A DNA stretch of 61,790 bases, filler included, from Sanchytrium tribonematis (taxonomy: Eukaryota): the NCBI GenBank assembly GCA_018985235.1. It is 9 parts of 9 records of this genome, joined end to end, with 100 filler letters (N's around TTAATTAATTAA, not from the genome) between each part and the next. Parts side by side here need not be neighbours in the genome. Positions count along the whole stretch, not along the records: positions 1 to 4,528 come from JADGIG010000710.1; positions 4,629 to 9,145 come from JADGIG010000711.1; positions 9,246 to 13,757 come from JADGIG010000712.1; positions 13,858 to 18,365 come from JADGIG010000713.1; positions 18,466 to 22,968 come from JADGIG010000714.1; positions 23,069 to 27,570 come from JADGIG010000715.1; positions 27,671 to 32,170 come from JADGIG010000716.1; positions 32,271 to 36,763 come from JADGIG010000717.1; 1 more part is not named here. One strand, given 5' to 3'. Every line of letters starts with the position of its first letter. The stretch's first letter is position 1. Below, one piece after another: positions 3,603 through 54,721 of the stretch. The notes below the pieces were generated by a model, which was not told where the DNA came from, searched no databases, and worked only from the letters and a program-made list of their open reading frames with translations. Position numbers and translations under genes: made by a program.

Positions 3603-4528
3603 TTATGCTGTAAATTGACTAGTCATTGAATGTTTAGAATGAATTCTCCAAGGTATTTTAATCATCACCATTCCAGTAAACATGACATTTAAACACAATC
3701 TAAGAGTGATTGAAAGTGATCAATTCACTTTAAATGTCTGTGATGGCCATTCATGGTTATTTAAGAGTGAGAAATTGGTAGAAATGGGTTGTTTGGAGGA
3801 GATGATTTGAGAGTCAAAAAGAGTAGAATCCATTTGGGGATTATTTATGGTCAATGCACGACTAGGACCTATATTAGAGGGAATTACGAGTGATTTGAGT
3901 GAGATCTACTGGGGATTGATTCGTTTGACTGGCAAATGCGATAGATTCTAGAAATTCTAAGGATTCTGACAAATTAAAAGATGTACTTTGTGGAATATCT
4001 GTAGTAGGATGATTCATTTGAGATAAAGTGACTGATTTTAATGTTATCAAGGTGCTGGTGGCCAATTTGGAACTAGTTGGATGCGCTGTTTTAACAGTTA
4101 ATAGCCTGGTATAGTTCGCCATAAATGGGATGATGCCACATGTGCTACTATTACTCGCATATACATCATCAATTTTGCAATAACTTTTAAATGTTTTACC
4201 AAACACTCCAGGTGAAATTGGATTGTTACTCAAATCACAAATCAATAAAGTATCATCATATTTGATGATGACATCCAACACCAGATTATTTTGTATAAAT
4301 AATGCAGCAGGGCGTAAAAATGTCAAATTGCCACTCAAGAAATTATTATTGAAATAAATGGTAGTTCCTGTAAATGAGGCATCTGTGCAGCCACTTAATT
4401 GATTACAAGATACATCTAAGGTTGTATCTGTGGCTATAGATTTTGGAATACTGCCAGTTAATAAATTGTGAGACACATTTAAAAATACCAAATTTGACCA
4501 ATTCGGGATCTCACCAATAAGATAGTTA
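3603..4528 (-). CDS. C-terminal part of an LRR-TM paralog; intron 3869-3887; in-frame TGA at 3720-3722 before the TM helix (possible pseudogene or truncated allele)
   Basis: LRRs (LNVSHNLLTGSIP, LDVSCNQLSG). Removing a 19-nt GT-AG intron continues the frame to FKVN*SLSITLRLCLNVMFTGMVMIKIPWR, which matches the paralog tails. Confidence 0.75.
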
Positions 4529-4628
4529 NNNNNNNNNNNNNNNNNNNNNNNNNNNNNNNNNNNNNNNNNNNNTTAATTAATTAANNNNNNNNNNNNNNNN
4601 NNNNNNNNNNNNNNNNNNNNNNNNNNNN
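4529..4628. other. Artificial contig linker (Ns + TTAATTAATTAA). Same linker at 9146-9245, 13758-13857, 18366-18465, 22969-23068, 27571-27670, 32171-32270 and 36764-36863
   Basis: Eight identical 100-nt spacers with stops in all six frames; the enclosed contigs descend in length. Confidence 0.98.
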
Positions 4629-5224
4629 TTCAACAAGATTTCAACATAATTTGTACCTGTCGAAAACAGAGTCATAATTAGCTTAAACCATGGAATTAAC
4701 TCTTTTCGACATTTGTACTTATTTAAATGACAAAAATATAAGTAATCTAAAAAGATACGGGAGCAATTTGTAGGATCTTTCATGAAATGCTCCAAAGAAA
4801 ACTGCTGCAACACGTTTGGAATTTCCGAAAAATCACCATAGTCATGATAGTAGCCCATAGCAACAATTGAAATATGTTCTAGATTGTTAGTCGTCTCCAA
4901 CAAATTCGTCAAGACTGCAAGATTTATGGCATTGGAAATAATGTGACAAAATTGGATTTGGACATTTTTCGGAAATTCATTTATATTTTGAATAAGTAAA
5001 TAGCTGAGATCCACAGAGCAAGGGTCTGAACTTTCGATGTATTGCCTTAAAGTAATTGCGCACATTAATTGATAATTGGGCTGAGTCTTAAATTCCAATA
5101 ACGAATTAAGGAGCTCATTGATAATTGTGGTAGAGTCAAATTTTAGGAGTTCTTCAGATATAGGATATATGGATTTTTGGTCAAATCTTTTGAAAAGATT
5201 TTTTGCAAAGTTTGCTTGTTTCAT
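4629..5224 (-). CDS. Helical-repeat protein, possibly importin-beta family N-terminus (truncated by contig end)
   Basis: QLMCAITLRQYI resembles the IBN_N signature (RQxAAxxLKxxI); otherwise weak. Confidence 0.45.
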
Positions 5225-5272
5225 GATCAAGATTTTTCGCAAAAAAATCAAATCTCCCCTTTAAACTTGTAA

Positions 5273-5853
5273 ATGATTTTTGGTAGCTATTTTAATGCAC
5301 TTCGTAAGTATTCAATTAGACAGTATCTGCATCAGTTCTTAGCTATAAATATTATGGTCGCCTCTGCGTTATACGTTTGGAAAGGTCTGGGTGTTTTGGC
5401 AAATACTCATTCACCTATCGTCGTTGTATTAACGGGTTCTATGGAACCAGCAATTCATCGAGGGGACATATTATTTATTACAAATCATACTAACACTCCT
5501 AGAATTGGAGATGTGGTGGTTTATACTGGGTACATGCAACAGGATGAGAAATTGGCCATTCCTATTATCCACAGAGCATTGCAAATATTTTACAAGCAAG
5601 AAAATGGTAAAAATGAAACATACATTGTTACCAAAGGAGACAACAACCCAGTAGATGATCGTGGTCTGTATCTTCCTGGACAGCATTTTATAAAACGATC
5701 TGAGATGTTGGGCTATTGCAAAGGAAATATCCCACGTAAATTTTCATTAATGTAGACCTGGGAATGATCACAATTTGGCTCAACGAAATACCTCACCTAA
5801 AAAATATTGTAATAGGGTTTTTGTGTGTGTGGACTCTTTTCAGCAAAGAATAA
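5273..5853 (+). CDS. SEC11: Signal peptidase complex catalytic subunit; join(5273..5735,5756..5853)
   Basis: SPIVVVLTGSMEP, PIIHR and TKGDNN motifs. Removing a 20-nt intron restores the conserved tail PHLGMITIWLNEIPHLK...SKE*. Confidence 0.96.
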
Positions 5854-5856
5854 AAT

Positions 5857-6832
5857 TTACTGCAATTTTGTGGGCTGAGTAACAAATCTCGCATCAACTT
5901 CTGTCTCGTCCTTGTCTTCTTCATCTCCGAAAAATTTGACTTTGTATTTGTTTGTTCTATTCTCGGAGGGTGGGCTGACAACTTTGGCTTCGTAAAGCTA
6001 CATAAAATCAAAATACAGAGGTAGTGTCTGGATATAATGCAAAAACAGTAGCTCCTTGCTTGTATTCCGGCCACGACATTGGTTTTTTCAGTTGACGAAC
6101 TCCATCCAATGATTTTACATCTTTCGCCTCTGGTGGTAGTCTCATAATATGTCTGCGGTGCTTTTCGGTAATTTCATCTGGCTCCTCGTAGTCTTGTATG
6201 GTATAAGCTGTCTTATTTGGATTAGGGTTTTCCTCAATTTTTGTGACATAGCCCAAAATCCAATTGCCTTTAATTAGGACCACAACCAAATCACCGATCT
6301 TAATAAGATTGGTGTTCTCCTTAAATTCGACTTCAGGTGGAGTAGTAGTCCTATTGGAATTATTTCTCATTCTTCTAGATGGTGGTCTACTTTCTCGAAG
6401 CTGAGTTTCTTTAAGAGCTTCGGGTATCTTTGCAGTCTCTTCAGGTTTACTCTCTTTAACCTCTATAATGCTTTCTATCGACATTGGCTCTTCTTTGGCA
6501 GAATTTTTCTTTCGATTGGCTTTTTCCGCTTTAGGCGTTTCTTTCAATTTAGGCTTCTTACTTATAACGGTAGCTGGACCTGGTTGCCGCCTTTTGCCAT
6601 CTGGGTGGAAAGTCACAATGTCTTCCGGATCACTGTCCATGCCGTCGTCTGATCGAAATTGCATATCATACTGAAGCAATTGGGTAATTCTGTGACCCAA
6701 TGCTCTTAGTCTTTGAATGTCATGTTGCGTTCTAGTATTTACGCATTTTGAATTTAACGCTTGAAATTCTTGTAGTCGTAAATTAAGAATATTTAAATTC
6801 GCTTCAAAATGGTCTTTCGTAAGTTTAACCAT
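5857..6832 (-). CDS. SGF29: SAGA-associated tandem Tudor protein; complement(join(5857..5997,6017..6832))
   Basis: N-terminal coiled coil. VFALYPDTTS|LYEAKVV...KVKFFGDEE...EVDARFV after removing a 19-nt intron matches the Sgf29 Tudor-2 region. Confidence 0.85.
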
Positions 6833-7106
6833 TCAAACCTAGGAGAGTCAAATGTCTGAAATATTTTAACTCTTCAGATTACTGACACGCGTTTAAGCTT
6901 GTGGTAAATTTAGCAGGTTGAAAAAGAGTAATGAGTTTTTCATTATTAATAGCCGTTTTATCATTGAGACTTATAAAACAAATCGGAAAATTTAATGCGA
7001 TTTTCTGGAAAAGTCAATAAAATAAGTCTCTGTAGTCCCTAATCTTTCGGCTGAATAATTTAGTTTCATAACCCACTTTCTCAAAACGTAACTCATAGGC
7101 CAAAAT

Positions 7107-8450: not shown

Positions 8451-8694
8451 CATGTTATAATTTTTGGCAAAATGTTTCTCTGATTATAATTTAAGTAAAC
8501 AATTTATGCACCAAATTGACAAATCTTTCAATTTTTCAAAAAGTAAATTGGGTTATCACCCTAATCACTGAAAACGCTTGAGGATAAATTAAATTGCAAA
8601 TTTTTTATATAAAGCTTCATGAACAATTTATGCAAAGGGCCAGAATTTGAGCTTCTCAAAGACAGATTTATTTTTCTCCCCAAGACCCAAACTC

Positions 8695-9441: not shown

Positions 9442-9490
9442 ATAGAATGTGCTTTATAAGCGGCAACATAGAATAGACCTATTTCATAGA

Positions 9491-9993
<503 letters not shown>

Positions 9994-11397
9994 ATGAAAT
10001 TTGGCAACTAGTCTACATCTATTATAAACAGAAACCGAAGCAAAAAGTAGACTATAAACAGCAAGGAAATGCAGCATATAAAGATAAAGATTTTCACGCT
10101 GCTATTGAGAAATATACGCTTGCAATTGAACAGGAACCACAATCCATCTATTATGGCAACCGTGCAGCATCTTATTTTCAATTAAAACAGTACGATTTGA
10201 CCTTAAAAGATTGTGATGAAGCATTACAATTAAATCCAAATTATTCAAAAGGAAGATATCGTAGAGCCCTTTGTTTGCATAAAATGAAGAGATACGAAGA
10301 AGCTATATTGGATCTAGTCGTATTGACTATACTGAATAATACGCAAGAGTATTCTAGAACCATGAATGAGTGGATGATTGGTATTTCAAATTTATTTAGA
10401 AATGGTTTCACAAATGCAAATTGACAAAAGATTACCATCCATCACATTCATCCAATCCTATTTTGACTCTTATTTCTATCAACCCAATATTGAGGATCCT
10501 CAATTACTCAAAATAGTGGATTTGATTAAAAACAAGGAATATAAAAATGCCTTTGATGAACTGTCTAAAATCAATGAATCTACACAAGAATACATTAGAT
10601 TGAATCTATTAGGCACCTTCCACTTTCTATATTATGATTTAGACAAGGCATACGACTATTTGAAGGAATCCATGAAATTGAAATCAAATGTGAATTCACT
10701 CTTAAAAATGGGCAATATCACCATAGAACGAGGTGATTTAGATACAGGCATGACACAACTAAATGAAGCAATTAAATCAGCCAAAGATCCATTAGAAAAA
10801 GCAGATTCGTATTATCACAGGGGCCAAATGTATTTGTTAAGCAACCAATTTACAGAAGCCATTCATGATTTTGATGACGCCATCTCCTATAATAAAGAAC
10901 ACATGTTCGCAAAGATCCAGAAGGCAACGTGCATGTACCGACAAGATAAAAAAGAAGCTTTAAAATTGATGATTTTAACAAAGAAGGAATTTGATGATAA
11001 AAATCCTGGTGCCATAGATTTATACTTGGGTGAATTATTTTTAGATCAAATGAATTTACAGCAAGCTACAAAGTGTTTTGATTATGCTATTGAGAAAACT
11101 GGCAGTCCGTTGGCATTTATCAACAAAGCCATGATTTTAGCACAAAATGATTTGATAGGATGTATGGAGCTATTTGAACAAGCTAAGAAAGCAGATCCAG
11201 ATTGTGATATGATCTATATTCAATACGGGCAAGTATTGACACAAGCAGGGCGTTTTGATCAAGCATTGGATGAATTTGATTATGCGATTCAATTAGCGCG
11301 TACACCAGGTGAATTAACACAATCTATTGGTGCTAAATTACAAGCATTGGGGACGATTCAAGCAGCAGCTATTCAAGAACAAACAAAAATGCCATAA
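9994..11397 (+). CDS. TOM70: Mitochondrial import receptor Tom70 (TPR); intron 10381-10399; start codon unresolved
   Basis: YKQQGNAAYK...YYGNRAASY clamp TPRs. A 19-nt intron joins them to RLPSITFIQSYFDS and further TPRs. An anchor-like IWQLVYIYYKQK precedes them in frame, but without an in-frame ATG. Confidence 0.85.
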
Positions 11398-12070: not shown

Positions 12071-12832
12071 TCAATAATTCATCCAAATTATCAAAGAAAT
12101 CAACCAGGAAATGAAAATGCAACTAAATACCCATATTTTGGCCACTTCTACTTGTGCTACATCTCTAGCAACACTGCTGATGGTTGTGTAGCACCCAAAG
12201 AACCCATCCGCAATAGCAATGATCACAGATGATTTCGTAGTAAATTTGTACAAAAGAATTAAACCCAATGTTCCAGTGAAATTAATGAGAAATGTGCCTA
12301 AATAAACTCGATACTTGACATTTGGATTATTAATGAATGATACAAGATATCTACAGAGTACGCCAAATGGACTCAGCAAGAGCGGCAATGCGAAATCAGT
12401 AAAATCTAATAATGATAATACAAGACAAATGATCAACGAAGCATAGCCCATCAGTGCGTAAAGAAACTTACAGGGTATTTCTGATGGCGTTGGAATAATT
12501 AAACAAGCTTTAAATCCTAATTTAAAAGCAGCAACAAATAATGAAAATGTGGGTAGCAGCCATAAAGATGCCCAAGATGGATCTAATTGAACCAATATGT
12601 AAATCCAACCACTAAATGTTGTAATTGATCCACAAAGTGCCAATGCAATGTATTTTTCATCAGGATGATTAGAAGAAATGCCCATAATAAAAGAGCCGAC
12701 CATTTGGATAATAAGATTTGCAGATAATTGATTATAATAAGTAGTAGTCCATGAGAATTTGATGAGCAATCTGATCAATGTGCCTAATTGAGATAGAATT
12801 ATCAAGAATCCAATTTTCATAAACCAATTCAT
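12071..12832 (-). CDS. FEX1: Fluoride exporter (tandem CrcB/Fluc domains)
   Basis: GTLIR...LCGSITTFS and GVLCRY...GTFLINFTG...GFFGCYTTIS CrcB signatures. Confidence 0.88.
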   Translation of the reverse strand: MNWFMKIGFLIILSQLGTLIRLLIKFSWTTTYYNQLSANLIIQMVGSFIMGISSNHPDEKYIALALCGSITTFSGWIYILVQLDPSWASLWLLPTFSLFVAAFKLGFKACLIIPTPSEIPCKFLYALMGYASLIICLVLSLLDFTDFALPLLLSPFGVLCRYLVSFINNPNVKYRVYLGTFLINFTGTLGLILLYKFTTKSSVIIAIADGFFGCYTTISSVARDVAQVEVAKIWVFSCIFISWLISLIIWMNY

Positions 12833-13221: not shown

Positions 13222-13857
13222 ACTAAAACGGGGACTGATTTGTTAAAAGAAAATTGTAGAATTTTAGAAACCCACTTGATTGGCTTATAATTAATGACAA
13301 GTCATAAATGAAGATTTACCATGATTGATCAAATTGAATTGAATTTTTTCAATTAATCTTTCGAGTTTAATGAAATTTATATTGAACTACCTCTAAATAT
13401 GCACCCATGATAGCAGACTAGGAGAATTCTCTTTAACTAAAATTTAAAATGTTTTCAATGATCTGAGCATGAAGTTCAAAAGATGGTTGTAAACTAACAA
13501 GTCAGATCCTCAATGCAGTAATGTAACTCTCTGTAATGCTCTTAGCGAACGAAGTGTCTTCTCCTTGATTTTTCATTATTGACCTCTCTGTATTCTTGGA
13601 TTAATCTGTTTGAACTTGTGATCAATTCAAGTGATTCAATATGTATTGACGAATAGAAAATTGACGTTGACTTGCTTATTGGTGTCCTGTGATTGGATAT
13701 TGCCACATTTATTTTTGATAGATGAAAAGTCGTTCCCCTTGAATCATCCTCTTCATGNNNNNNNNNNNNNNNNNNNNNNNNNNNNNNNNNNNNNNNNNNN
13801 NTTAATTAATTAANNNNNNNNNNNNNNNNNNNNNNNNNNNNNNNNNNNNNNNNNNNN

Positions 13858-14065: not shown

Positions 14066-16883
14066 TTAAAATGCTGATTGAGGATATTGCTTGCTTGTTC
14101 TTTTCTTCTTTTGTCGCCCCAATCGATTTGCAAACAATGTCATAATAAATAAGCCATCCACAGATAATTTGACAATCATCTGCCATGTCCAATGTAATTG
14201 AAATGGGCGCAATCCAAATTTTGTCAATGTGGTCCCTGCAACATTCGCCAATGTGAATGTACTGCTTGTTGCAAATGAGTTATCAGTAGTTTCATTGGAT
14301 GAAAGCAATGTGGTTCTTTTGAATGGAATACGTGTTATGACTAAATAAATGCAAATTACTGGATGGGGCATCATTTTGCAATTCTGAGCTAAAGGCTGAC
14401 CATTCTGCTGTGTTTGCTGGTACAGAGACAGTAAATTCTGCTGATTTACTACTTGTCACAACTATTTCAGTAGAATCCCCACTTGTTTCTCTTGTAAAAC
14501 TACTTGAAATAGTTGTGGAAATCAAACTACTCGATAAAACAATTTGCAATTGCAATGGTTTTGGGGTCAAATAATACTTTTTACACATGGTGTAATTACC
14601 AATAAATGTGCTATTCAGTAATGGATTATAAGAAACATCACAATTTGTTAAAAGTGTGGTATTTTTAATTTCAATGCTTGAAATATTTGTATTTCCTAAA
14701 ATCAATGTTTTAGGATGATTTACGAATAATTTATCGTTAAAAGTATTACCCTCTCGTGCATTATCACCCAATACAATTGTCTGTAATGAGTCAGGGAATG
14801 TTGGTAATGGACCAATGAAATAATTGCCTTGAATTTGCAATTCTGTCAAATTGGGTGGCAATGGTGGTAAAACACCTTTGAGTCCGCAATACATCAATTC
14901 AACACTAGTGAGAGTGCTTGGTAACGAAGATACATCTCCTTTCAAATCCAAATTGGTCATTTTTAATGTTTCTAATCCCTCTTCAAATTTTGGTAATGCT
15001 CCACCAATATTGATATTTCCGACTTCAAAATATTTAATATGACCCGGAAGAGTAGGTGGCAACTTGGCAGTCTGATTAAATTTGAATGAAATCTTCAAAG
15101 TTTGCAAAGAAGGAGGAATATCTTCCACATCAAACACATATCCATTTACAGTGTTTAAAATCAATTGATCAATTTGGTTTATGTTTAAAGCTGTGACATT
15201 TTGATTGACACAAGTGACTGTGCCATATGGATCATCACAGCAATTCTCTTCCACCAGAAATGGGGGAGATAAATTCATTTTATGAAACATTCTGAGGACA
15301 TATTTGCAAGAATCCAAATAAGAAGGTTCTGTATACCACTGATATTGTGTTTTACAATTTGTAAAATTACCCATTTGATTTTGAGGAATCATATTATATG
15401 AAACATCACAAAATAATGCCGTTGTACCCGGTTTTGCCCATATTTTATCAATAAAATTGCTTCTAAATCTAAAATAAATGGGTCGACTTGAATAAAAACC
15501 AGTCATATCGATGACACCTTTGATCTGATTATATGACAAATCAATAAATTCGATTTGACTTCCTTGTAACTCATTTTCAACAGCTGTAAATTGATTCTGA
15601 CTGACTCTCAAGGTTTTTATGGATAAAATATTGGGAATAGTTCCATTTAATCGATTTCTGTCAAGTTGCACTACTTTTAGATTGGGAGGCAATTTGCCAG
15701 AAATGGGTCCCGTTAATTGATTGTCATACAATTCTAATGAATTTAGATTCACTAAATGGGATAAATCTGGAAAAGGCCCAGTAATCTGGTTCATTCTCAA
15801 CTCTAAAATATTCAGGGTGTTGGGCAATAAAGTGCCATTTATAGTTCCATTCAAGTTTTGTTCATAAAATTGAATACTACTGATTCTATTTGATGAACAA
15901 CCATAGAATCCATCACAGCAATTTTGGCTATTTTCGATCTTATTGAAGTAATCCGGACTTGTTAAATGCATGTTTAATTGTTTTAAAAATTGAATAAAAT
16001 TGGGACAATCTGGAGATGGAGTGGTTTTCAATGAATAAGAACATCCATATGGTTGAAGGGCCAATAAATCATTATTATTTGACGTATCAAATTGGATATA
16101 TCCAATATTGCAGGTCTTCAACTTTTGAGGATTCAAGACAAATAAATTGTCAATTTTGTTGAAAGCGATGTTCAAACTGGTGATATTGGGAGAAGCAATC
16201 GTTAAATTGCCAGTAATTTGATTTCCACGCAATTGTAATTCTTTAATGTGCTTAAAATCAAAGGAGATAGGGCCATATAAATGAGAAAACTGCAAATCCA
16301 AAAATTCAATGGTATCTGGTAGATTTGGAAACCGACGTGGTACATAATTGACATAGGAATACAATCCGTTATTGTACAATGTCTTCAAATTCATGGCATT
16401 CTTTGGATAAATATCATAAATATGACCATACAAATCAATATATTCCAAAGAATCTGGTAAAATGGGTAAATTGGGTGGATTTGTCTCGTCATAATCACCC
16501 AATATAAAGTATGTCAAATTGGGAAATGCATTTAGATTGAATCTAATGTAGTTTGCTTCTGTTAAATCCATAACTTTGAGAGAATCGGGTAATTTCGTAA
16601 TCATCATGGATTTCGTGCTATATGCCAAGTCTAACACGCGTAAACTGGGTGGTAGAATGATATTGGGATGTGTTGCTTGCTTATAATCACTCGTAAATCC
16701 CCAATGGATCTCCGTCACCGTCTCATTTTGACAAACAACTCCAACTCCTAAACAACAATCTTGCTCATACTGAATGAAATAATCAGTATTTGTATACTTG
16801 ATATCCATATCTAATGCCAGTTGAATGACCGTGGGACAATCCACAGAGACAGCGCTAAGTAATGTCAAAAGTAGCGCGTACAT
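14066..16883 (-). CDS. Large secreted/TM LRR protein with three capped LRR modules; complement(join(14066..14340,14360..16883))
   Basis: Signal peptide and three DC/SC..CC..C caps each followed by LRRs. A 19-nt intron joins the S/T stalk to the TM plus basic tail (WQMIVKLSVDGLFIMTLFANRLGRQKKKR). Confidence 0.88.
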
Positions 16884-36953: not shown

Positions 36954-38691
36954 TTATTTTCTCAAGACAGATTTGGCAGAATATGTCTGCAATTCACTGC
37001 CAGGAACAAACGTAAATCCTACAAATTGTTTTTGCACTGATTCTGATAGCCTAGCTTCTTCAAAAGAGTCTTTAGGCATTTCGTTAGTGAAAACTTCATC
37101 AAAATTACTTGTGTCACCTGCTGCTGCCACTCTGGGTTTGAATGGTGGGACAATTTGCTTTTTGTAGAGCTTTTCAAAATCAATTTCCTGAAAAAAAGCA
37201 TGTCCTTTAATTTGGGATTCGTTAAATCTCTTAGCTGGATCCTTTTCAATTATACCTGATAAAATATTTACCGCTAATGGTGACATATAACCAGGAAATA
37301 CGACCTGATCCGTCATAATTCTTTTGTACATAACCTGTATGTTTTCATCATAGAATGGGGGAAGTCCAGTAATCATCTCGAATAACAAAATTCCGAGTGT
37401 CCACCAATCTATCGATTTTGTATAGCCCTGGCCGTGGAGAACTTCAGGGGCCAGATATTCTGGTGTTCCACAGAAAGTGGACGTTTTATCTTCTGTATTT
37501 GTATTAATTTTGCATAATCCAAAATCACATAATGCAATATGACCTACACCATCAAGTAAAATATTTTCAGGCTTAAGATCTCGATCTAAATAAATATTGT
37601 TTACAAATTATATTGTATTTATGTAGACATTCCAGTGCCAGCACCAGCTCTGCAGCATAAAATTTTGAACGCACCTCGCCAAATCGACCCTCGTTTTGAA
37701 GATGGTGGAATAATTCCCCACCATTAATAAAATCGAGGCAGAAGTACAGTTTCTCAGGGGTTTGAAATGAAAATTTGAGAGAAACAATAAAAGGATGGTT
37801 GATTTTTGCCAAAACCTGCCTCTCCGCCAAGGTATGTTCAACCTCGTCAGTCTCCACTATGTGGCTTTTCTTGATAATTTTCATAGCGTAAACACGGCCA
37901 GTATCTTTTTTTCGAACCTGCATAACTTTCCCAAATGATCCTTTCCCAATGACTTTCATCAATTCAAAATCTTCCATTGTGATTGCTTTACCAGCAGGTC
38001 GAGCAAGGCTTAATTGCAAATGGATTTGACCAGGTGTTTTTCCTACGGGAAGAGGAACTGGTGGATGAACAGTGAGCCATATGTCTACTAGTTTTTCGTA
38101 AACAGTTGGAATTGGAATAATAACAGATCCTAAAAGTACGTCTTGTTGCTCCAATGTATTTTCAGTGACTTTAATAGACTTTTTCCTATCCCTGGCTCTA
38201 CCAGCTTGTTCTTCTAGCGCCTGTACTTGTCTTCTATCTTCTTCCTCGTCAACTGTCTTTTGATAGACATTCAAAATTAGTTCAGCTTCTCTTGTGAAAT
38301 CAAATGAAACCTTTGCTTTCCAGGTTGGAGTATCCATTTTACCACTACTGGAGAACATGGTTATTTCATTTTTGTCATACTGAATGACTACATAGGGATT
38401 ATAATAGATAAAATCCATATTTCCTTGTTTAAATTTTTTTTCTCTTTGATCTGTAGGGATTTTGTCTAATACACCTAACGGAATATAGAGATTTTTGGCT
38501 TCAATAACGCGACAAGAGAAAATACCAAGACTGTCGCTCTTATCTGTTTTATCTAGCTTTTCAGTTAAGTTGGTTTTTACGGGAGCTGGTGACACCTCCT
38601 CTTTCTTTTCAGAGGGAGATTTTGGAGATTTTACATCTTCAACATCAACACCAGAAGGTGTCTTTTTAAAAATTTTATTTAGTAGACCCAT
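36954..38691 (-). CDS. C2-domain AGC kinase (Ypk1/Gad8-like); complement(join(36954..37585,37605..38691))
   Basis: VIGKGSFGKVMQVRKKDT. A 19-nt intron splits IIY|RDLKPEN. CDFGLCK, TFCGTPEYLAPE and hydrophobic motif FVGFTF follow. Confidence 0.94.
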
Positions 38692-39516: not shown

Positions 39517-39932
39517 TCAATGTTTAACACGAGTCAAAATGTCCCATTTGGCTGAATCATTATAGTGCTCAAATGATAGCAACTTCATGTTATCGTCGTA
39601 AGTGAATAAATGCAATTGAAAGTCAACAATTTTGTTTCCTGTTGGCTTATGTGTCATTTCTGAATCAATCAATGCAGCCACCTGGTTTCCACCTTCCATC
39701 AAATTCTTGACTTCAAAGCGATGGAAATCGAAATTTTCCGCCAACATTGTAAAAAACTCTGCGCATTCAGCCTTTCCAAATCGAGGCTTATACACTTCAA
39801 TTTTTCGCTTGGGACTATCAGGCAAACTATCGTCCCATTTAATTATTTCGTGCATATGAGACACCATTCCTGTCACATCGCGCTCAGCAAACATTTGATA
39901 GATTTGGCCTGTCAACTCTGCAAATTTCCCAT
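39517..39932 (-). CDS. SnoaL/NTF2-like (ketosteroid isomerase-like) protein; start unresolved
   Basis: IYQMFAERDV...W...G..ECAEFF...EGGNQVAAL...TG...HLFTYD...FEHYND pattern of SnoaL-like proteins. Confidence 0.75.
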
Positions 39933-40106
39933 ACAAGGGGAAAGGGACAGCATCCACTAACCGTATTAAGGAGCATCATATGATATCCCATAGACTAAAT
40001 TAAAAATTCAATTCTAAATAATAGAAGCACCTTAAAACCTCTTTATTACCCCATTTTCTGTTTAACCGTAGATACGACAACCCGATTCATCACAGATTGT
40101 GAAACG

Positions 40107-41864: not shown

Positions 41865-41873
41865 TAAATCTCC

Positions 41874-42734
41874 ATGTTTACTGTACTTTTGAGAGGGCAA
41901 TTGATTTCAATTTTGCTGACTCTCTGCTCTACTACATCACAATTTTTAGGTCCATATAAAATACCCACTTTCCAGTTATTTATAACCTATTTAGTCTTAT
42001 GTATTTATGTTATTTACTATAAAAGTATTCCAAGGCATTGGACATACTCATTAATTGCGTTCTTTGATGTGATGGCAAATTATTGTCTAATCAAGGCTTA
42101 CCAATATACAGATCTTTTGAGCATATCACTATTGAATAGACTGAGCATTCCAATAGTCATGATTCTTTCAAAATATTTTCTTAAAACAAGATACACAAGC
42201 AGAAATTATATTGGCATGCTAATATGTGTATCTGGATCCTTGCTAGTTGTTTATAGCGACTATCAAAAAAAGTCTGGAACAGGAAGTTGGATTGGTGATG
42301 TTTTGTGCGTTGTTGGTGCTTGCCTGTATGCTTTAGCCAACACTTTGCAGGAATATCTAGTAAAAGAATCGACTATTCCAAATTATTTGACAAGTATTGG
42401 AGGATATGGTGTTGTCTTTGCTGGAATTTTGCTAGGTATAGAATATAAAGAAATGGCACATTTTAAAATAGATCAAATCGGTGTTATATATATGTTAGTT
42501 TTCGTAACAAGCATGTTTTTCTTGTACTCTTGTGTGCCTAGATTTATTATGAATTCTAGCGCAACCTTATTTAACTTATCAATATTGACTTCCGACATCT
42601 ACAATTTGCTTGTGAGTGTTTTTATATTTGGAATTGAGCTTACATGGCTCTATGCTGTAGCATTTGCTATAATTTTGATTGGTATCTATTTGTTCCACTC
42701 AAGTGGTAAAGATTCTGAAGTCAACATTGTCTAA
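41874..42734 (+). CDS. SLC35F-family (DMT/EamA) transporter
   Basis: GQLIS, DVMANY.LIKAYQYT, GD...GACLYALAN.LQE and SATLFNLSILTSD. Confidence 0.9.
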   Translation: MFTVLLRGQLISILLTLCSTTSQFLGPYKIPTFQLFITYLVLCIYVIYYKSIPRHWTYSLIAFFDVMANYCLIKAYQYTDLLSISLLNRLSIPIVMILSKYFLKTRYTSRNYIGMLICVSGSLLVVYSDYQKKSGTGSWIGDVLCVVGACLYALANTLQEYLVKESTIPNYLTSIGGYGVVFAGILLGIEYKEMAHFKIDQIGVIYMLVFVTSMFFLYSCVPRFIMNSSATLFNLSILTSDIYNLLVSVFIFGIELTWLYAVAFAIILIGIYLFHSSGKDSEVNIV

Positions 42735-42782
42735 TGTAGAATTATTTTGAACTTGTAAATTCATCTGTAGATGAAAAATAAA

Positions 42783-43349
42783 TTATTTATTAAGATTAAG
42801 CTGGGAAATCTTGACAGGCAATGTGATTGCACTTTCAAAATCAACAGACTTAAGACCTAATGTATATGCTAAATTCCCACGAATATATTTAACAGTTACT
42901 CTTTCAATATTTGGATATTGTTTGTTTTGCAGTATATTCCTTCTAACTGCATTCAATAAATTCTCATCAAGAAGCTTGTGATCTGCATTTGGATCTGTAC
43001 TCAAAGAAGAATCGTAAGCTTTACACATGCCAAGACATTGTTCCCACAATTGTTTGACTAATTTTTGCTGAGGAACATCCATTCTTGCCAAACGATCTTC
43101 AACATCATGAAAGATCAAATCTATTGTGTTTTTAGTCAAAGGCTGATTCGATTGCAGCGGATGTAAAAACATCCATAAATGAAGAATCTGTGATGAAAAC
43201 CATAATTGAAAGGAATCTGGTAATTTCGTTTGAGATGATATAAAATGTTCAAATTCGGTAACGGGGGCCTTTAAACTATGCTGAATTTGTAAACCTACTC
43301 TATTGTAATAATTCTGCTTTGTGTTAAATAACTGTAGAAAGCGATTCAT
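42783..43349 (-). CDS. CBP3: Cytochrome b chaperone Cbp3/UQCC1
   Basis: LPDSFQLWF...LHLWM, DVEDRL, AYD and AVRRNI. Confidence 0.8.
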   Translation of the reverse strand: MNRFLQLFNTKQNYYNRVGLQIQHSLKAPVTEFEHFISSQTKLPDSFQLWFSSQILHLWMFLHPLQSNQPLTKNTIDLIFHDVEDRLARMDVPQQKLVKQLWEQCLGMCKAYDSSLSTDPNADHKLLDENLLNAVRRNILQNKQYPNIERVTVKYIRGNLAYTLGLKSVDFESAITLPVKISQLNLNK

Positions 43350-43483: not shown

Positions 43484-44869
43484 ATGATGTCATATTTCGC
43501 AAACTCGGTTCCCCTTCAAATGTCAAAAACGAAAGACCCACAATCCAATGTTCTTAAAATTACAGCTTACACCTTTGGGCTATGGACCGGATACGTTTTG
43601 TATACATTAAATTTGCAGGAATATTTTCCGGCGGTCCAAACATTTTACCCTAACGATTATCGAATGATTGCTGCACCATGTGGAATGCTTCTTGGGACTT
43701 TGATGACACCCACATTTTTAGACAGATATAAGCTTAGACATGTATTATATTTTGGCGCTTTTGTCTCAATATTAAGTTGTGCAGTGATGCCTTTTGCATT
43801 TGCACCAGAGGTAATTATTGTTGATAGAATATTTTTTGGTATAGCTTTGGGTCTGCTGCTAACTAAATTTTGTATTTTTGTGAGTATGGTGGTTCCAAAT
43901 GAAAGAATATTAGAATATACGATTGATTTGATTGTAGGCTTTGCAGGTGGGTGTACACTAGCAAACGTAATCAGCTTGGTGTCATACAGTGAAAATGTAT
44001 TTAGTAGATCATTCAGAATACCTTACTTTATTGCAATTGCTTTGATTCTTCTCTGGACAGTGTGGGTCTCATTATTTTTGCCAGAAAGTCCTTTATTTTT
44101 TATTAAAGAGGGAAATGACGATGCAGCTGGCAGAATAATTGCTGCTTTTTACGGAAAGCCAAGCAGCCACCAGGATATTCAATCAAAGATCAAATCTGCT
44201 AAAGAGGCAATCAAATCTGCCTCACTGAAGAGTCCTACTCTAATCACACCATTAAATGCCAAATTTCGTTCCAAGACTCTAATATCAGCAACTTTATTGT
44301 TTTTTACATTTGCAAGTTACCCTGCAACGCTACTGTTTTACGGTATTAAAACTCTTAATACAGATTTCGATGGCCAAACAAAAATCACCATATCTCTAAC
44401 TTTTACTACTATATTTTTCGTTTTTTCGTTTTTTAGCAAAAAGCTGATTATGAAATTTAAGAGAAAAAATTCAATGTTGGCATCTGCCGTGGTTCTTTCC
44501 CTGTTATCTCTGATATTGTGTTTTTTAACAATTTCAAAGAGTTATATTGTTGCAATTATAGTGCTGGGATTATCTTCTGGAATTGCATCAATTTGGCTTG
44601 CTATTTCACTTGCTACAGTTATGCAAATTTTTGACGAGGATGCCAAGTCAAGATCTATTGCATTATCATTAGCGTGCGCTTGGTTCGGGGCGATTTTGGT
44701 ATTTTTATTCGATATTTTATTGTCTGAATATACTGTATTTTTAATGACTGCACTTTCACTTATATCTTTAGTATGGATCAAAGTTTCACCACTACCAGAG
44801 CAGCATCATTTAAGTGCTTATGAGACTTCAAGAAGAGAGTTGCTAAGGCAAGATTCTTCTCAAAAATAA
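43484..44869 (+). CDS. MFS sugar-porter-like transporter (start 43484 or 43520)
   Basis: About 12 TM segments; LPESP motif; FKRK loop. Confidence 0.82.
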   Translation: MMSYFANSVPLQMSKTKDPQSNVLKITAYTFGLWTGYVLYTLNLQEYFPAVQTFYPNDYRMIAAPCGMLLGTLMTPTFLDRYKLRHVLYFGAFVSILSCAVMPFAFAPEVIIVDRIFFGIALGLLLTKFCIFVSMVVPNERILEYTIDLIVGFAGGCTLANVISLVSYSENVFSRSFRIPYFIAIALILLWTVWVSLFLPESPLFFIKEGNDDAAGRIIAAFYGKPSSHQDIQSKIKSAKEAIKSASLKSPTLITPLNAKFRSKTLISATLLFFTFASYPATLLFYGIKTLNTDFDGQTKITISLTFTTIFFVFSFFSKKLIMKFKRKNSMLASAVVLSLLSLILCFLTISKSYIVAIIVLGLSSGIASIWLAISLATVMQIFDEDAKSRSIALSLACAWFGAILVFLFDILLSEYTVFLMTALSLISLVWIKVSPLPEQHHLSAYETSRRELLRQDSSQK

Positions 44870-49568: not shown

Positions 49569-49601
49569 AGAATATTATAGTTTGAAATAATTTATTTTGC
49601 T

Positions 49602-49781: not shown

Positions 49782-49815
49782 TGTTCGTTTTGCAAGGGTC
49801 AAAGTCTAAAAGGGG

Positions 49816-50655
49816 ATGAATAACAGATTGGAACTATCATCTACTAACGATATTGGTTCCGATAACTACAATTCTTCTGTATCCGAAGAGGATCATCAGT
49901 CAAACGAATCTGGCGTATCAGAGACTGACAATAAACTTGATAATAGCGAAGAAACTGACAAAATAGACCAAAATGAAATTCGAGAGGCAGTAATTGCCCA
50001 GAAGCAGCTCTATAGTAGTCTGTTAGAACAAAGAATTAGATTGCAAAAGAAAATACAGTATCTTAATGATGATGAGGCAGTCAAATTAATTCCTAAAATC
50101 GAAGTGGAAAATAGATTACAGAATTATATTGAGAGTGCTGGATTAAGCACCTCTTCATCTTTGGACAAGTTGGACGCCTTGTATGATACTTTACTAAATG
50201 AGAGTCAACAAGAAACTAAATTAAAGGGAATGCAGCCTATTTCTGAGCAATTACAGCAAATTTTGCTGAAGGACGAATCTAGGTTATTGAAAAAAACTCA
50301 ATTGAATCGTCTAACTAAGGTGGAAGACGAATCTGTTTTTGACGAGAGCGATTTTTACGCCATGATGTTGAAAGAATACCTCGAGCAAAAATCAAATTCT
50401 CCTGAGAATCAAGCAAAGATTAAAAAATTTAAGCAGTCCATCAAAGTGCACACAAGAGAAGTTGATCGAAAAGGTACCAAGGCAAGAAAACTTAATACAG
50501 AAAAGATACATGAAAAGATTAGGGGACTAGTGCCTACTGTAAAGCATTACAAGGGTCTCTGGGAATTTGAAAATATTGATATGTTAGTCAATGGATTATT
50601 TGGTCAATCGGGCATTGCGAATGACGAAGATGTTGGAGAATTCAATGTGTTTTAA
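49816..50655 (+). CDS. BFR2: Bfr2/AATF ribosome biogenesis factor (compact)
   Basis: LLEQRIRLQK; FDESDFY..MLKE; VDRKGTKARKL...HEKI. Confidence 0.85.
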   Translation: MNNRLELSSTNDIGSDNYNSSVSEEDHQSNESGVSETDNKLDNSEETDKIDQNEIREAVIAQKQLYSSLLEQRIRLQKKIQYLNDDEAVKLIPKIEVENRLQNYIESAGLSTSSSLDKLDALYDTLLNESQQETKLKGMQPISEQLQQILLKDESRLLKKTQLNRLTKVEDESVFDESDFYAMMLKEYLEQKSNSPENQAKIKKFKQSIKVHTREVDRKGTKARKLNTEKIHEKIRGLVPTVKHYKGLWEFENIDMLVNGLFGQSGIANDEDVGEFNVF

Positions 50656-50660
50656 TAAAT

Positions 50661-51695
50661 TTATTTTACATATGGTAGAATATTGTCATTTACAAGTGTT
50701 ACAATTTGCTCTGCAACTAAATACAATTTTGAAGGGTTTTCCAGCACCTCGAGCCTAAGGCTTTCGCAAATATTCAACTGATAGATTGAGCCCACATTTA
50801 TAAAATCCATATAAATTATATCCAATAGCTTCTTTTCTCCACAGCGTTCAAAATCCTCATACACTCTAAGAAATTTAACATTTTCCTCGCAAAAAAATTG
50901 CCTAGCAGTTTCTTCCAGATAATCGATATTATAGAATGTTCCCATTACTTGAATATTTCGAGTTTGCAATTTGTAATTAAGAAAGTAGAGAATGGGATAG
51001 TAAGCACCCCAAAATATAAAGTTTATACCTTGAAATGTGTTATCTAGTGAGTAATTCACCTCAAAATGGATCCTAGATAAAACCAAGACAATAGCAATTA
51101 TAATTGTACAAACAAATTTTCCCAAAAGTTCATTCCTCATACCGATTCTGTCCTTAACATTATAATGTATGATGCCGATGACGAATGTCACCTCGAGTAT
51201 CATTAAAGCTATAGTAACTCCATAGCTAATTACAAATGGGTGTTCTTCACACCTAAAATCAAAATCCGGTTCCTCCAAAGCTATAAAATTGTAAATCAAA
51301 GGTATACCCTCACTCAAAATTAAGGCCACTGCTGCAAATAATATACACCGACTTTTTCGAATCTTGTTCTTTTCATCCCACAGAAATCGAGTTAAATATT
51401 TGATACTACTTTTTTCTTCCACTAAGTAGTTGAAAATAAATGTTGTTCTAATAATATATACAACTAGTGCGATGGTGGATACAAATTGAATAGAAATACA
51501 AGGGGAATGGGTCCAGGATAGTATGAGGGAGATATATGAGGAGAAAAGCCCTAACAATAAGAGTTTTGGTCTCCTTTTTGATATAATCAATTTCTTGTAA
51601 TTCACTAATAGAAAGATCAATCCAAGTACAAAAAACACTGTTAATGATATGATCATTGCTACGGAATCTAATATACTTTTATTTTTATGTGACAT
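50661..51695 (-). CDS. Multi-pass (about 7 TM) protein with C-terminal RGS domain
   Basis: Hydrophobic helices, then FCEENVKFL...IY..FI...YQLNI (RGS). Confidence 0.8.
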   Translation of the reverse strand: MSHKNKSILDSVAMIISLTVFFVLGLIFLLVNYKKLIISKRRPKLLLLGLFSSYISLILSWTHSPCISIQFVSTIALVVYIIRTTFIFNYLVEEKSSIKYLTRFLWDEKNKIRKSRCILFAAVALILSEGIPLIYNFIALEEPDFDFRCEEHPFVISYGVTIALMILEVTFVIGIIHYNVKDRIGMRNELLGKFVCTIIIAIVLVLSRIHFEVNYSLDNTFQGINFIFWGAYYPILYFLNYKLQTRNIQVMGTFYNIDYLEETARQFFCEENVKFLRVYEDFERCGEKKLLDIIYMDFINVGSIYQLNICESLRLEVLENPSKLYLVAEQIVTLVNDNILPYVK

Positions 51696-51883
51696 TATAG
51701 CTTTTCGGGCCTACCAAGAGGACGTTCAACCAGATAGATATTATGGACCACATGGTCAAGCAATGTCTTATCAAAAGGCCGAAATCAAATTCATGCAAAT
51801 ATTTTTATGATTATTTGAAATCTTAAGAATATCTCAGTGAGAATGCCAGAAATTTTTTATGTTGAACGTCAATTTTAGATAGA

Positions 51884-52888
51884 TTACACATGTATCAACA
51901 AGTTTTCGCGGACCATTTGAATGACCTCGTCGTATGCTAAATGCAGTGTGGTAGGATCGTCAAGAATAGAAATTCTAGTTTTTTCACATAAATTTAGTTG
52001 AAATTTAGACTTCCTTTTTATAAAAGAGTTGATGATTTCATTCAAAATCAGTTCATCGGGCTCAAATTGATACTCATAATATTTTTGTAAGAATAAGATA
52101 TTCTCGGAACAAAAAAATTGCTTTCCCACCTTCATTAAATCCGAAAAATCATGTTGTTCGTCAGGCAATAACAAAGTTCTGTTTCTTCGTTTAAAATAAG
52201 CTAAATAGATGAGAGGGTACCATACTCCCCAAAATATAGCTATTATTCCGATAGTGAGATCGATATAAATTGTTGGGAAAGGAAATCTTTTTTGTAAAAT
52301 TTGAGAAACGATCCCGACTAACATAGCCGAAAAAACTCTTCCAATAACCTCGTTTCTCATCCCAATACGATCCTTTACTTTTTGTCTAAACATAAGGCCA
52401 ATGAAAATTAGTCCTGCTAATATAAAAATGAAAATGAATGGTAGACGAATATAGGGAGGGTATATTTCACAAGTGTATTGGGAGACATGTTGAATCACAT
52501 TATACGCCGCCATAGCACCTAAAGATAAAACCAAATCAACAGAGCAAATCAATAATGACTGCAATTTTCGTAATTTGTGATGTTCTCCCCAAAATAAATA
52601 GTTGAAAGATTTGACCCAACATTTTTTTTCACTCAAATAATTGTAAATGTAAGCTGTTCGAAGCAATGAAATGTACAGTAGAATAATAGTCAATGCCTGA
52701 GTCAGCATACAAGGTACGCCGCAGATCTGCAACACTGTAATAGTAAACCAAAGCCACTGATCTACAAATAGTAAATGTGGTAATCTTCTGGCAATGACTA
52801 CATGATTCACATGATACAGTTGAATAGAGAAGCCAGAAATGAAATAAAATAAGAGGACAAATATCGTCCAAAGTGGTAATTCGAGCAT
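51884..52888 (-). CDS. Multi-pass (about 7 TM) protein with C-terminal RGS domain, tandem paralog
   Basis: Shares VKDRIGMRNE with its neighbour; FCSENILFL...FQLNL. Confidence 0.8.
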   Translation of the reverse strand: MLELPLWTIFVLLFYFISGFSIQLYHVNHVVIARRLPHLLFVDQWLWFTITVLQICGVPCMLTQALTIILLYISLLRTAYIYNYLSEKKCWVKSFNYLFWGEHHKLRKLQSLLICSVDLVLSLGAMAAYNVIQHVSQYTCEIYPPYIRLPFIFIFILAGLIFIGLMFRQKVKDRIGMRNEVIGRVFSAMLVGIVSQILQKRFPFPTIYIDLTIGIIAIFWGVWYPLIYLAYFKRRNRTLLLPDEQHDFSDLMKVGKQFFCSENILFLQKYYEYQFEPDELILNEIINSFIKRKSKFQLNLCEKTRISILDDPTTLHLAYDEVIQMVRENLLIHV

Positions 52889-52946
52889 GAAGATTAGGGT
52901 GGTTTTAGATCAATCTCCACGCAGAGAAAAAAACAAATAGTGCTAT

Positions 52947-54721
52947 TTAATTTATTGACAATGCTGTGACTATAAATTTCATAAATAAATAAAGATTGAA
53001 TAAAAATAAAAATATCAGAACTGCTAAAATAACTTCATCGATATTTAGTGACGAAATCCAAAAGGTGAATGCAACTTTCGCTTCCGTGATCTTGGAAATT
53101 TCTTCAACGCTTCCCTTTCGCTTTTTCTTCGCTTTAGATATGCCCTTGTCTATTTGGTCCAGCGCATCACTATAAAACTTCTTGACTCTATCGGATACTC
53201 GTTTATCAACTTTAGATTCTTGGAAAACTGTCTTCTTGTAGTCTACTCGAACACTTACGGACAATTTTGAATGCTTTCCCTCGTTTAAAATTTCTACCCT
53301 ATGAAGGGAAACATAATTTGGTACGTTTTGACTAGATGACACAGGTATACCAGAGCTTTGAATTTCCACCAAATACCTTTGTTAATATAAAATTACTTCT
53401 CATTTTCAACTGAATTTACGAGATAATGAATATCTGAAAATTTAAAAAGCTCGGTTGGGCGATTCACCTTGTAAGCAATAGTACGTGAATTGCATTTAGA
53501 TTGAGTACCTGATATAGTATCTTTGTAGAGTACCTCCGACCAGTGTGTTATTTCGAGGTCAATGGCACCCTGACTTTGTAAGGTTCGCTGTAAAAGTGGA
53601 GATTCGAATAGAAATCGGTAAATATACTTTGGTTTAAGCTTGATCAGCTTTTCAAAAACAATCATTTTAAATTGAGAACCGATGGGAAGATTTGACATAG
53701 AGGGTACACTTAGTAATGGCTTCAGTAATTTATCTACGTCGGGAGAACCGGGAACATAAGGTTTTGGTGAGGGACTATTTTTACCAATATCCTCCGCTAT
53801 AACATTTAGACTGTCCATAGTTTTGCTGATAGAGATAGAACTTTTTTGTCTTGGTTTGGTTTTTTCGGTAATTTGAGCCTGAATAGTAGCTAAACTTTTA
53901 CCCATGTTGGACCAAAAAGCTTTAACAGGATCATTTGGATTAAGCTGAAGTGCAGCTTGATTATCCTTCTTATCTTCGGAGGCTGATTTTATATCAATGA
54001 CATCTTCAAGAGCTTCTTTAATTTTCATTGGTGTATTTGCACTTTGGATCGTGGGGGATTTGCTCAAATCTATATCAGCACTTGCAATTCTAGAAATGCT
54101 TTCTTGTTCCCCCAATAGCTTTTCCTGTAGAGTTGATCCAATGTCGTCCTCCTCACTATTTTTTAAAGCATTTGTGACCGAAGATTTCGGAAACACAATT
54201 TCTTCTTGACTATTCGACATGTTAGGAATCTTGAGAGTGGATTCCCCAATAAGAGCCGCATACTCTTTACAAGAATCTTCCCAGTAGAGCTGCATTAATT
54301 TATGAGCAGCGTTCCTTTTTAAAAACGATACAAATGTGTAAAAATTTTGAGTAGTGTAAATCCTAATTGCGTTGGGAAATACACTTGCTGTATTTCTCTT
54401 TTCTATATTGACAATATCGTGCAAGTAAATTTTAATTTTTACAACATTTGCAGCATCCTGTCCAATATATCCTAAAATGGACTTGTTTACGATCAGTCTT
54501 CCCGTGTTGGTCGTATTCTCCAGGCAGCATGTAAATATTTGATTCATATCCAGCTCTTGTAGCTCAAATTCTAATCGCAATAATTCCAAATCAATTACGT
54601 CAATACCACTCTTTGTTTGGATTTCGTTCGGGGAATTTAAATCTGATTGCGAAGAAAATCTTCTATTCTTGTGTTGCTGTAAATCGGTTAAGGCATCAAT
54701 CGTTGGCGATAACGAGGACAT
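52947..54721 (-). CDS. GRAM + VASt (StARkin) + TM sterol-transfer protein (Lam/Ysp2/GRAMD1-like); complement(join(52947..53376,53397..54721))
   Basis: GRLIV...IEKRNTASVFPNAIRI...FVSFLKR (GRAM); ITHW..RTIAY. A 20-nt intron joins to the C-terminal part and TM. Confidence 0.82.

What the first reader, a model, noticed from the sequence alone, without database searches (positions are those of the whole stretch)
3869..53396. Ultra-short 19-20 nt spliceosomal introns with an invariant A at -6
Seen: seven introns, each restoring a recognisable protein frame. 3869-3887 GTAATTCCCTCTAATATAG; 5736-5755 GTAAATTTTCATTAATGTAG (Sec11); 5998-6016 GTATTTTGATTTTATGTAG (Sgf29); 10381-10399 GTATTTCAAATTTATTTAG (Tom70); 14341-14359 GTAATTTGCATTTATTTAG; 37586-37604 GTAAACAATATTTATTTAG (splits kinase Y|RDLKPEN); 53377-53396 GTAATTTTATATTAACAAAG. 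All start GTA and all have T at -8 and A at -6 (YTWAYNWAG). I found no longer intron. Known: typical fungal introns are several times longer; similar sizes occur in chlorarachniophyte nucleomorphs and heterotrich ciliates. Inference: a length-measuring, remodelled spliceosome with the branch point fused to the 3' splice site and a lariat loop of only 14-15 nt. Standard gene finders would miss these introns. 3n (18/21-nt) introns without stops would be invisible to my method.
Basis: partly seen in the sequence, partly recalled or inferred. Interest (0 to 1): 0.88.

Follow-up and report, generated by a model that had tools for sequence, protein, structure and literature searches.

The report
Shortest fungal introns, in a sanchytrid
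Genes of this algae-parasitising sanchytrid fungus are interrupted by 19-20-base segments that sit exactly where related proteins run on without a gap, so they are very likely spliceosomal introns, probably the shortest yet seen in fungi, though no RNA was available to prove they are cut out.

Summary
All seven 19-20 nt GTA...YTWAYNWAG segments are present. For Sec11, Sgf29, Tom70 and Ypk1/Gad8 the proposed cut ranks first among 81, 291, 60 and 141 possible GT/GC-AG cuts and gives gap-free alignments; a fifth completes a VASt domain; two in LRR genes are weaker. The window is a sanchytrid fungus (clade with Amoeboradix gromovi, 100/100). Other sanchytrids break at the same codons; two read-through tails decode to 19-nt introns, one with A forced at -6. 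Other relatives lack the Tom70, Sgf29 or Ypk1 intron. No RNA was available. Tiny introns with A at -6 are known (Stentor), and Yarrowia fixes its branch A at -6, so this is a new variant, not a new kind. 'Remodelled spliceosome' is only partly backed: the published A. gromovi annotation keeps U1-70K, U2AF, BBP, SF3B1 and Prp8, but lists no Slu7 or Prp18, which yeast needs only for longer branch-to-AG distances. My searches found no report of sanchytrid introns; published sanchytrid proteins were called without intron models and are truncated there. The scan earlier noted 26-29 nt (Rozella) and ~37 nt (Neolecta) introns, not these.

The parts
5736..5755 (+). 20-nt intron, phase 1, in signal peptidase Sec11 (gene 5273-5853)
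   Evidence: Ranks 1 of 81 cuts; gap-free with 9 full-length homologues; relatives P0123, P0124 break at the same codon
5998..6016 (-). 19-nt intron, phase 0, in Sgf29 (gene 6832-5857)
   Evidence: Ranks 1 of 291 cuts; gap-free with uninterrupted P0254-P0256; P0257 breaks at the same site and decodes best to 19 nt with A at -6
10381..10399 (+). 19-nt intron, phase 1, in Tom70 (gene about 10007-11397)
   Evidence: Ranks 1 of 60 cuts; gap-free with uninterrupted P0243-P0245; X1 contig covers it with no listed difference
37586..37604 (-). 19-nt intron, phase 1, splitting the Tyr before RDLKPEN of the Ypk1/Gad8 kinase (gene 38691-36954)
   Evidence: Ranks 1 of 141 cuts; P0002-P0004 break at the same codon, P0002 decodes to 19 nt with 20 of 20 exon-2 residues matching, P0121 reads straight through
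53377..53396 (-). 20-nt intron, phase 2, AAG end, in a GRAM-VASt-transmembrane (Lam/Ysp2-like) gene (54721-52947)
   Evidence: Joins a 495-codon frame to a 143-codon frame without early Met whose top Pfam hit is VASt positions 95-150, E 0.0067; longer cuts not excluded by homologues
14341..14359 (-). 19-nt intron, phase 1, in an LRR protein gene (16883-14066)
   Evidence: Top matrix score; adds 91 codons with a moderately hydrophobic stretch and basic tail like the paralogue at 1976-3598, but similarity is not significant (E 0.06)
3869..3887 (-). 19-nt candidate intron, phase 1, in a partial LRR protein gene (4527-3720)
   Evidence: Motif match that beats all 559 other sites in leave-one-out; adds 49 codons; no homologue to pin the junction; weakest by frame evidence

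Best explanation
Seven 19-20-base GTA...AG segments interrupt genes of this sanchytrid fungus, four of them exactly where related proteins run on without a gap, and they are likely introns cut out by the ordinary major (U2-type) spliceosome, which likely branches at the fixed A six bases from the end and would take the AG right behind it. Shown: sequences, junctions, conservation or clean absence in other sanchytrids, lineage. Inferred: U1/U6 read a weak GTAWWY donor; U2 pairs with a degenerate YTWAY box; the acceptor is set by the 3-nt spacing after the branch box, with no room for a polypyrimidine tract; the lariat loop is 14-15 nt. Because donor and branch motifs are weak, total length (19-20 nt) probably supplies much of the specificity. 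More tentative: the second-step factors Slu7 and Prp18, needed in yeast only for longer branch-to-AG distances, have been lost or have diverged, while U1, U2AF and BBP are kept. The lineage is intron-poor (7 in 50 ORFs, about 0.13 per kb of coding DNA) and appears still to be losing or gaining introns.
For: Junction ranking 1st in 4 of 4 testable genes; gap-free alignments; same-codon breaks in relatives for Ypk1 (3 of 4 relatives reaching the site), Sec11 (2 of 3; the third breaks 5 codons earlier), Sgf29 (1 of 4), none for Tom70 (0 of 3); back-decoding gives 19 nt for P0002 and P0257, A at -6 forced in P0257, and T-8/A-6 in A. gromovi P0004 if its stop is the acceptor; 3 of 6 phase-1 read-through tails stop at intron nt 12-14, where TAA falls in a 19-nt intron (P 0.003-0.018); leave-one-out 6 of 7; invariant A P 0.0026; X1 contigs show no indel over the 3 introns laid; clade with A. 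gromovi 100/100; core spliceosome in A. gromovi annotation; Slu7/Prp18 dispensable at short distance (passages).
Against: No transcript, no lariat. Branch box matches TACTAAC at only 2-6 of 7 positions, and 4 of 7 have T at -7. The T-8/A-6 positions were picked from these same seven. P0124 starts GTT, not GTA, and P0004's length is 11, 20 or longer. Two LRR introns lack homology support. No snRNA in the window and no genome to search, so all spliceosome evidence comes from a sister species' intron-blind, about 92% complete annotation, where a miss is weak. Only 62 kb seen: longer introns elsewhere are possible.
Confidence: 0.8

Rival explanations
1. The introns are real, but the A at -6 is not the branch point; the YTWAYNWAG block is an extended 3' splice-site signal read by U2AF (as TTTCAG is in C. 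elegans) and branching is at another A, for example -7 or -10.
For: Poor match to the U2 pairing consensus (2-6 of 7), A at -10 in 5 of 7 and at -7 in 3 of 7; both U2AF subunits kept in A. gromovi; C. elegans precedent.
Against: -6 is the only position with A in 7 of 7; the Sgf29 intron has no A at -7 or -10; A at -6 is forced in P0257; Stentor and Yarrowia place the branch A there.
Confidence: 0.1
2. The segments are true introns but are spliced poorly, as in microsporidia, so most transcripts retain them and the stop or frameshift acts as a throttle on expression.
For: Microsporidian short introns splice at under 20-25%; Mikrocytos 16- and 17-nt introns at 63% and 37%; all 7 here are non-3n, so retention would shift the frame.
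Against: They sit in core genes (Sec11, Tom70, Ypk1), and the sister species keeps a fairly full spliceosome. Not exclusive with the best explanation.
Confidence: 0.2
3. The breaks are amplification or assembly errors, or inactivating insertions in pseudogenes, that happen to look like GT-AG introns.
For: Fragmented assembly with an apparent mis-join near 10007; the motif alone is at background level; X1 may be the source of this DNA, so it is not independent.
Against: Same-codon breaks with different letters in several other sanchytrids; exact GT-AG ends giving gap-free proteins in 4 of 4 genes; both exons conserved; no indel in X1 contigs.
Confidence: 0.02
4. The segments are removed or bypassed without the spliceosome (DNA-level excision, ribosomal bypass, tRNA- or Ire1-type splicing).
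For: Very small size; patchy presence among relatives.
Against: Canonical GT-AG in 7 of 7; junction sliding 0-1 nt in 5 of 7, so no flanking direct repeats as a rule; X1 DNA contigs show no joined form; major spliceosome present in the lineage.
Confidence: 0.02

Closest known systems
Heterotrich ciliate tiny introns (Stentor coeruleus; PMC9505925, passages read)
   Same: GT-AG, AU-rich, narrow size, putative branch A at -6 (10th of 15, 11th of 16 nt); most common intron GUAAUUUUUAUAUAG closely resembles these; snRNAs and most proteins kept
   Different: 15-16 nt against 19-20 nt; unrelated free-living ciliate; backed by annotation of thousands of introns
Chlorarachniophyte nucleomorph introns (as described in PMC10245619, section 7 read)
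   Same: 18-21 nt range covers these lengths
   Different: Relict endosymbiont nucleus, more than 800 introns in about 300 genes; here a main nucleus with 7 introns in 50 ORFs
Mikrocytid introns (Mikrocytos mackini; PMC10245619)
   Same: Parasite, few introns, two adjacent lengths only
   Different: 16-17 nt; rhizarian; spliceosome cut to 17-19 proteins with only U2, U4, U6 found, whereas A. gromovi keeps U1 proteins, U2AF and BBP
Microsporidian introns (Encephalitozoon cuniculi; PMC6349667 and PMC2483917, passages)
   Same: Fungal-related parasite, intron-poor, very short GT-AG introns
   Different: [quoted passage not shown]
Yarrowia lipolytica fixed branch-to-AG spacing (PMC2483917, passages)
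   Same: Fungus with branch box 2 nt before AG, which puts the branch A at -6, and no polypyrimidine tract
   Different: Long introns (median 204 nt) with a strict ACTAAC box; here 19-20 nt with a degenerate box

Membership tests
U2-type (major) spliceosomal introns | GT...AG ends | tested here: met
   7 of 7
U2-type (major) spliceosomal introns | Removal restores the conserved reading frame exactly | tested here: met
   4 of 4 genes with homologues, rank 1 of 60-291 cuts; 1 more by Pfam; 2 LRR cases untestable
U2-type (major) spliceosomal introns | Branch adenosine in a U2-pairing box | tested here: inconclusive
   Invariant A at -6 (P 0.0026) but 2-6 of 7 matches to TACTAAC; U2 sequence unavailable
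U2-type (major) spliceosomal introns | Segment absent from mature mRNA, released as a lariat | not testable with these tools
   No RNA holder listed
U2-type (major) spliceosomal introns | Major spliceosome encoded by the organism | tested here: inconclusive
   No genome held, no snRNA in window; Prp8, SF3B1, U2AF, BBP, U1-70K listed for the sister species A. gromovi
Heterotrich-type tiny introns | Length 15-16 nt | tested here: not met
   5 of 7 are 19 nt, 2 of 7 are 20 nt
Heterotrich-type tiny introns | A fixed at -6 in an AU-rich intron | tested here: met
   7 of 7, GC 15-32%
Microsporidian short introns | Strong GTAAGT donor and CTAAYTT branch box | tested here: not met
   No G at +5 in 7 of 7; C at -9 in 1 of 7 (reference motifs)
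Chlorarachniophyte nucleomorph introns | 18-21 nt introns at high density in a relict algal nucleus | tested here: not met
   Size fits, but host is a fungus and density is about 0.13 per kb
U12-type introns | RTATCCTT donor and TCCTTAAC branch box (consensus recalled, from no call) | tested here: not met
   None of 7 carries either
Sanchytriomycota (host lineage) | Clade with Amoeboradix, sister to Blastocladiomycota; small AT-rich genome | tested here: met
   Ypk1 tree 100/100 with A. gromovi, weak 66/85 with Paraphysoderma and Allomyces; GC 34.4%; one gene, 22 rows

The most novel reading that the evidence does not exclude
Sanchytrids as a phylum carry only 19-20 nt introns, the shortest in Fungi and below the medians reported for animals, spliced by a spliceosome that keeps U1, U2AF and BBP but has dropped the Slu7-Prp18 second-step ruler and defines introns almost wholly by length and a fixed branch-to-AG spacing: a natural minimal substrate in the yeast's own kingdom, and a hidden cause of truncated or missed genes in the published sanchytrid gene inventories.
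Probability: 0.35. Interest if true: 0.87.

Novelty: new variant of a known kind. Interest (0 to 1): 0.72.

Why it matters
It adds an independent origin of introns of 20 nt or less, this time in true fungi, with the same A at -6 as in Stentor, which suggests a shared geometric floor of the spliceosome. Fungal spliceosomes are the best-studied ones, so the sanchytrid snRNAs and branching or second-step factors can be compared residue by residue with yeast structures, making the question of how short an intron can be directly testable. It also matters in practice: sanchytrid proteomes were called without intron models, so a share of their proteins (7 of 50 ORFs here) is truncated, which may affect gene-loss claims for this phylum.

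Tried and rejected
Whole genome: none held, so no genome-wide intron census or snRNA search. Sequencing runs: one DNA holder X1, possibly the source; no RNA holder listed, which says nothing on expression. JGI metagenome scan with the sanchytrid Ypk1 alignment: 458 stretches matched a pattern, 5 loci, 30-57% identity, none sanchytrid-like, not used. Rfam: 0 matches at E up to 1. PDB searches for the Lam-like gene: nothing below E 0.19. Protein Atlas unavailable. Bare motif count: not discriminating. Other motif hits rejected as introns by frame: 40058-40075, 12298-12314, 55075-55093, 61648-61667, 54315-54331, 5304-5323 (inside the Sec11 frame). 44343-44363 (21 nt, in frame, MFS transporter) left undecided, judged exonic from the recalled family motif only. 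High-scoring 22-40 nt matrix hits (50216-50254, 42755-42794, 41860-41881, 43967-44004, 38660-38682) are antisense, intergenic or would break an open frame. The third LRR translation printed had a frame slip at the junction; one search gives the right one. The label 'fixed a priori' is too strong: those positions came from these introns, so I cite the any-column test. Papers seen: PMC8371127 (passages; Supplementary Data 1 searched, A. gromovi sheet whole, S. tribonematis sheet cut early; two large supplements unreadable and could mention introns), PMC13644364 (part 1 of 3 and passages), PMC10245619 (section 7, passages), PMC9505925, PMC2483917, PMC6349667, PMC13685798, PMC10459994, PMC10622942, PMC10158995, PMC10711555, PMC8476143 (passages only). 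'Not in print' rests on searches; subscription journals are mostly outside the library.
Full report
Observation. The window is nine contigs joined by N spacers, GC 34.4%, 50 main ORFs. All seven segments are present as described: 5736-5755 and 10381-10399 on +, the others on -. All start GTA and end YTWAYNWAG. The motif by itself is at background level in this AT-rich DNA (8 hits at 19 nt, 6 at 20 nt, 2-7 at other lengths), so I tested frames and homology.

Junctions. Each segment joins a long open frame that closes within 1-22 codons to a downstream frame of 32-332 codons. A motif-free scan of ORF ends lists all seven as the shortest or second-shortest joining pair. For four genes I scored every GT/GC-AG pair near the break against homologues: the proposed intron ranks first of 81 (Sec11), 291 (Sgf29), 60 (Tom70) and 141 (Ypk1/Gad8), and the spliced proteins align without a gap at the junction. 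For 53377-53396, exon 1 holds a GRAM domain and exon 2 has the C-terminal part of VASt as top hit (E 0.0067), fitting a Lam/Ysp2-type protein; longer cuts are not excluded. The two LRR cases have only motif and frame support. A matrix built from six introns ranks the seventh above all 559 other 19-20 nt GT-AG sites in 6 of 7 trials. An invariant A column arises in 0.26% of interior shuffles. Contigs of run X1 show no indel over the three introns laid, but X1 may be the source of this DNA.

Organism. The closest named relatives are EukProt proteins of Amoeboradix gromovi (Ypk1 78%, Tom70 63%, Sgf29 41%) and one of Sanchytrium tribonematis (Sgf29 37%); the best full-length hits for Ypk1 and Sec11 are from Paraphysoderma. 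A Ypk1 tree of 22 rows puts the window with A. gromovi and three unnamed proteins at 100/100, weakly sister to Blastocladiomycota. It is a sanchytrid distinct from A. gromovi; I do not fix the species.

Relatives. Database proteins of sanchytrids are unspliced ORF calls (the published sets used TransDecoder on genomic contigs), so their tails show introns. Ypk1 of P0002, P0003 and P0004 breaks at the same codon as here, P0121 reads through it but breaks 42 codons later, and P0005 diverges before the site and was left out. Sec11 of P0123 and P0124 breaks at the same codon, P0125 slightly earlier. Sgf29 of P0257 breaks at the same site; P0254-P0256 are uninterrupted. Tom70 of P0243-P0245 is uninterrupted. 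Back-decoding eight tails: P0002 fits 19 nt with 20 of 20 exon-2 residues (score 108 against 13 for the next length); P0257 fits 19 nt best, with A forced at -6, on only two exon residues; A. gromovi P0004 fits 20 nt with T-8 and A-6 if its stop is the acceptor, but 11 nt or over 20 are possible; the other five give no length. Three of six phase-1 tails stop at intron positions 12-14, where TAA lies in a 19-nt intron (P 0.003-0.018). Against a strict rule, P0124 starts GTT. So tiny introns are shared across sanchytrids, and single introns are present in some and cleanly absent in others.

Mechanism. Shown: the sequences and junctions. Inferred: excision by the major spliceosome with branching at -6 and a 14-15 nt loop; acceptor chosen by fixed spacing; length as a main specificity cue, since no donor has G at +5 and the branch box matches TACTAAC at 2-6 of 7 positions. 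I could not search this genome. The published eggNOG table for A. gromovi lists Prp8, SF3B1, U2AF35, U2AF65, BBP, U1-70K, U1A/U2B, Luc7, Prp40, Yju2, Cwc25, Isy1, Prp17, Prp22-type and Prp2-type helicases and cactin; it gave no hit for Slu7, Prp18, U1C or Prp39 by name or by KOG/KEGG identifiers that I recalled. Slu7 and Prp18 are dispensable in yeast when the branch point lies close to the acceptor, and Prp18 has been described as a ruler setting a minimum distance (passages). Their loss would fit a branch A at -6, but a miss in an intron-blind, 92% complete annotation is weak evidence.

Comparison. Introns this short are known from heterotrich ciliates (15-16 nt, putative branch A at -6), mikrocytids (16-17 nt) and chlorarachniophyte nucleomorphs (18-21 nt). 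Among fungi and animals the reported minima are microsporidia at about 25 nt and myxozoans at a median of 22. Yarrowia lipolytica already fixes its branch A at -6 but has long introns. Density here, about 0.13 per kb of coding DNA, is a tenth of the 1.30 per kb reported for Allomyces in conserved genes (different method). The segments work like Stentor's introns and belong, by every feature I could test, to U2-type introns; they fail membership of the heterotrich, nucleomorph and microsporidian sets on length, host or motifs.

Novelty. Searches for sanchytrid, Amoeboradix, Sanchytrium or Sanchytriomycota with intron found no discussion of their spliceosomal introns; in the two main papers the word occurs only in a reference title. 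A 2026 paper lists only Microsporidia as the fungal exception below 30 nt. Unread supplements and subscription papers may hold a mention. This scan's earlier notes cover Rozella (26-29 nt) and Neolecta (about 37 nt), none on sanchytrids.

Verdict. Real with high probability (about 0.93 that the four pinned segments are spliceosomal introns, 0.8 for the full best explanation), a new variant of a known kind, probably the shortest fungal introns, unproven at RNA level. Interest 0.72.

Noticed in passing
window 9990-10010: Tom70 lacks an in-frame start and the N-terminal membrane anchor seen in relatives; an X1 contig matches from 10007 on but has 135 other letters before it, so the calmodulin-Tom70 join is probably a mis-assembly.
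   Followed up: partly
window, all seven introns: Six of seven introns lie in the 3' half of their genes (63-90% for five measured; the partial LRR gene is near its end), opposite to the 5' bias usual in intron-poor genomes (recalled); small sample.
   Followed up: partly
P0121, P0125: Sanchytrid relatives have breaks starting with GT at other sites: Ypk1 after CGTPE and Sec11 a few codons before the site here; likely further tiny introns.
   Followed up: partly
PMC8371127 Supplementary Data 1, A. gromovi NODE_116: The branchpoint-bridging protein appears as two ORF calls on one contig, perhaps split by a tiny intron.
   Followed up: no
P0257 versus window 5857-6832: An Sgf29 named from Sanchytrium tribonematis is only 37% identical to the window's yet shares its intron site, while A. 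gromovi's (41%) lacks it: paralogues or several sanchytrid species in the data.
   Followed up: no
window 18467-22887: Non-LTR retrotransposon-like element: endonuclease domain and reverse transcriptase in two ORFs; a possible source of reverse transcription for intron loss.
   Followed up: no
window 1976-3598, 3720-4527, 14066-16883: Three related secreted-type LRR proteins with Ser/Thr-rich stalks; all have an I-T-R motif at or near the place where two of them carry the intron.
   Followed up: partly
window 39517-39975: SnoaL-like ORF whose Pfam match starts before its first Met; no tiny intron found upstream.
   Followed up: partly
window 1-1971, 50661-52909, 58627-60020: Tandem paralogue pairs: two divergent kinases, two membrane proteins with a C-terminal region that looks RGS-like (recalled; no Pfam hit), two four-helix membrane proteins without Pfam hit.
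   Followed up: no
window 13273-13464: A second, about 91% identical copy of this non-coding stretch exists among X1 contigs.
   Followed up: no
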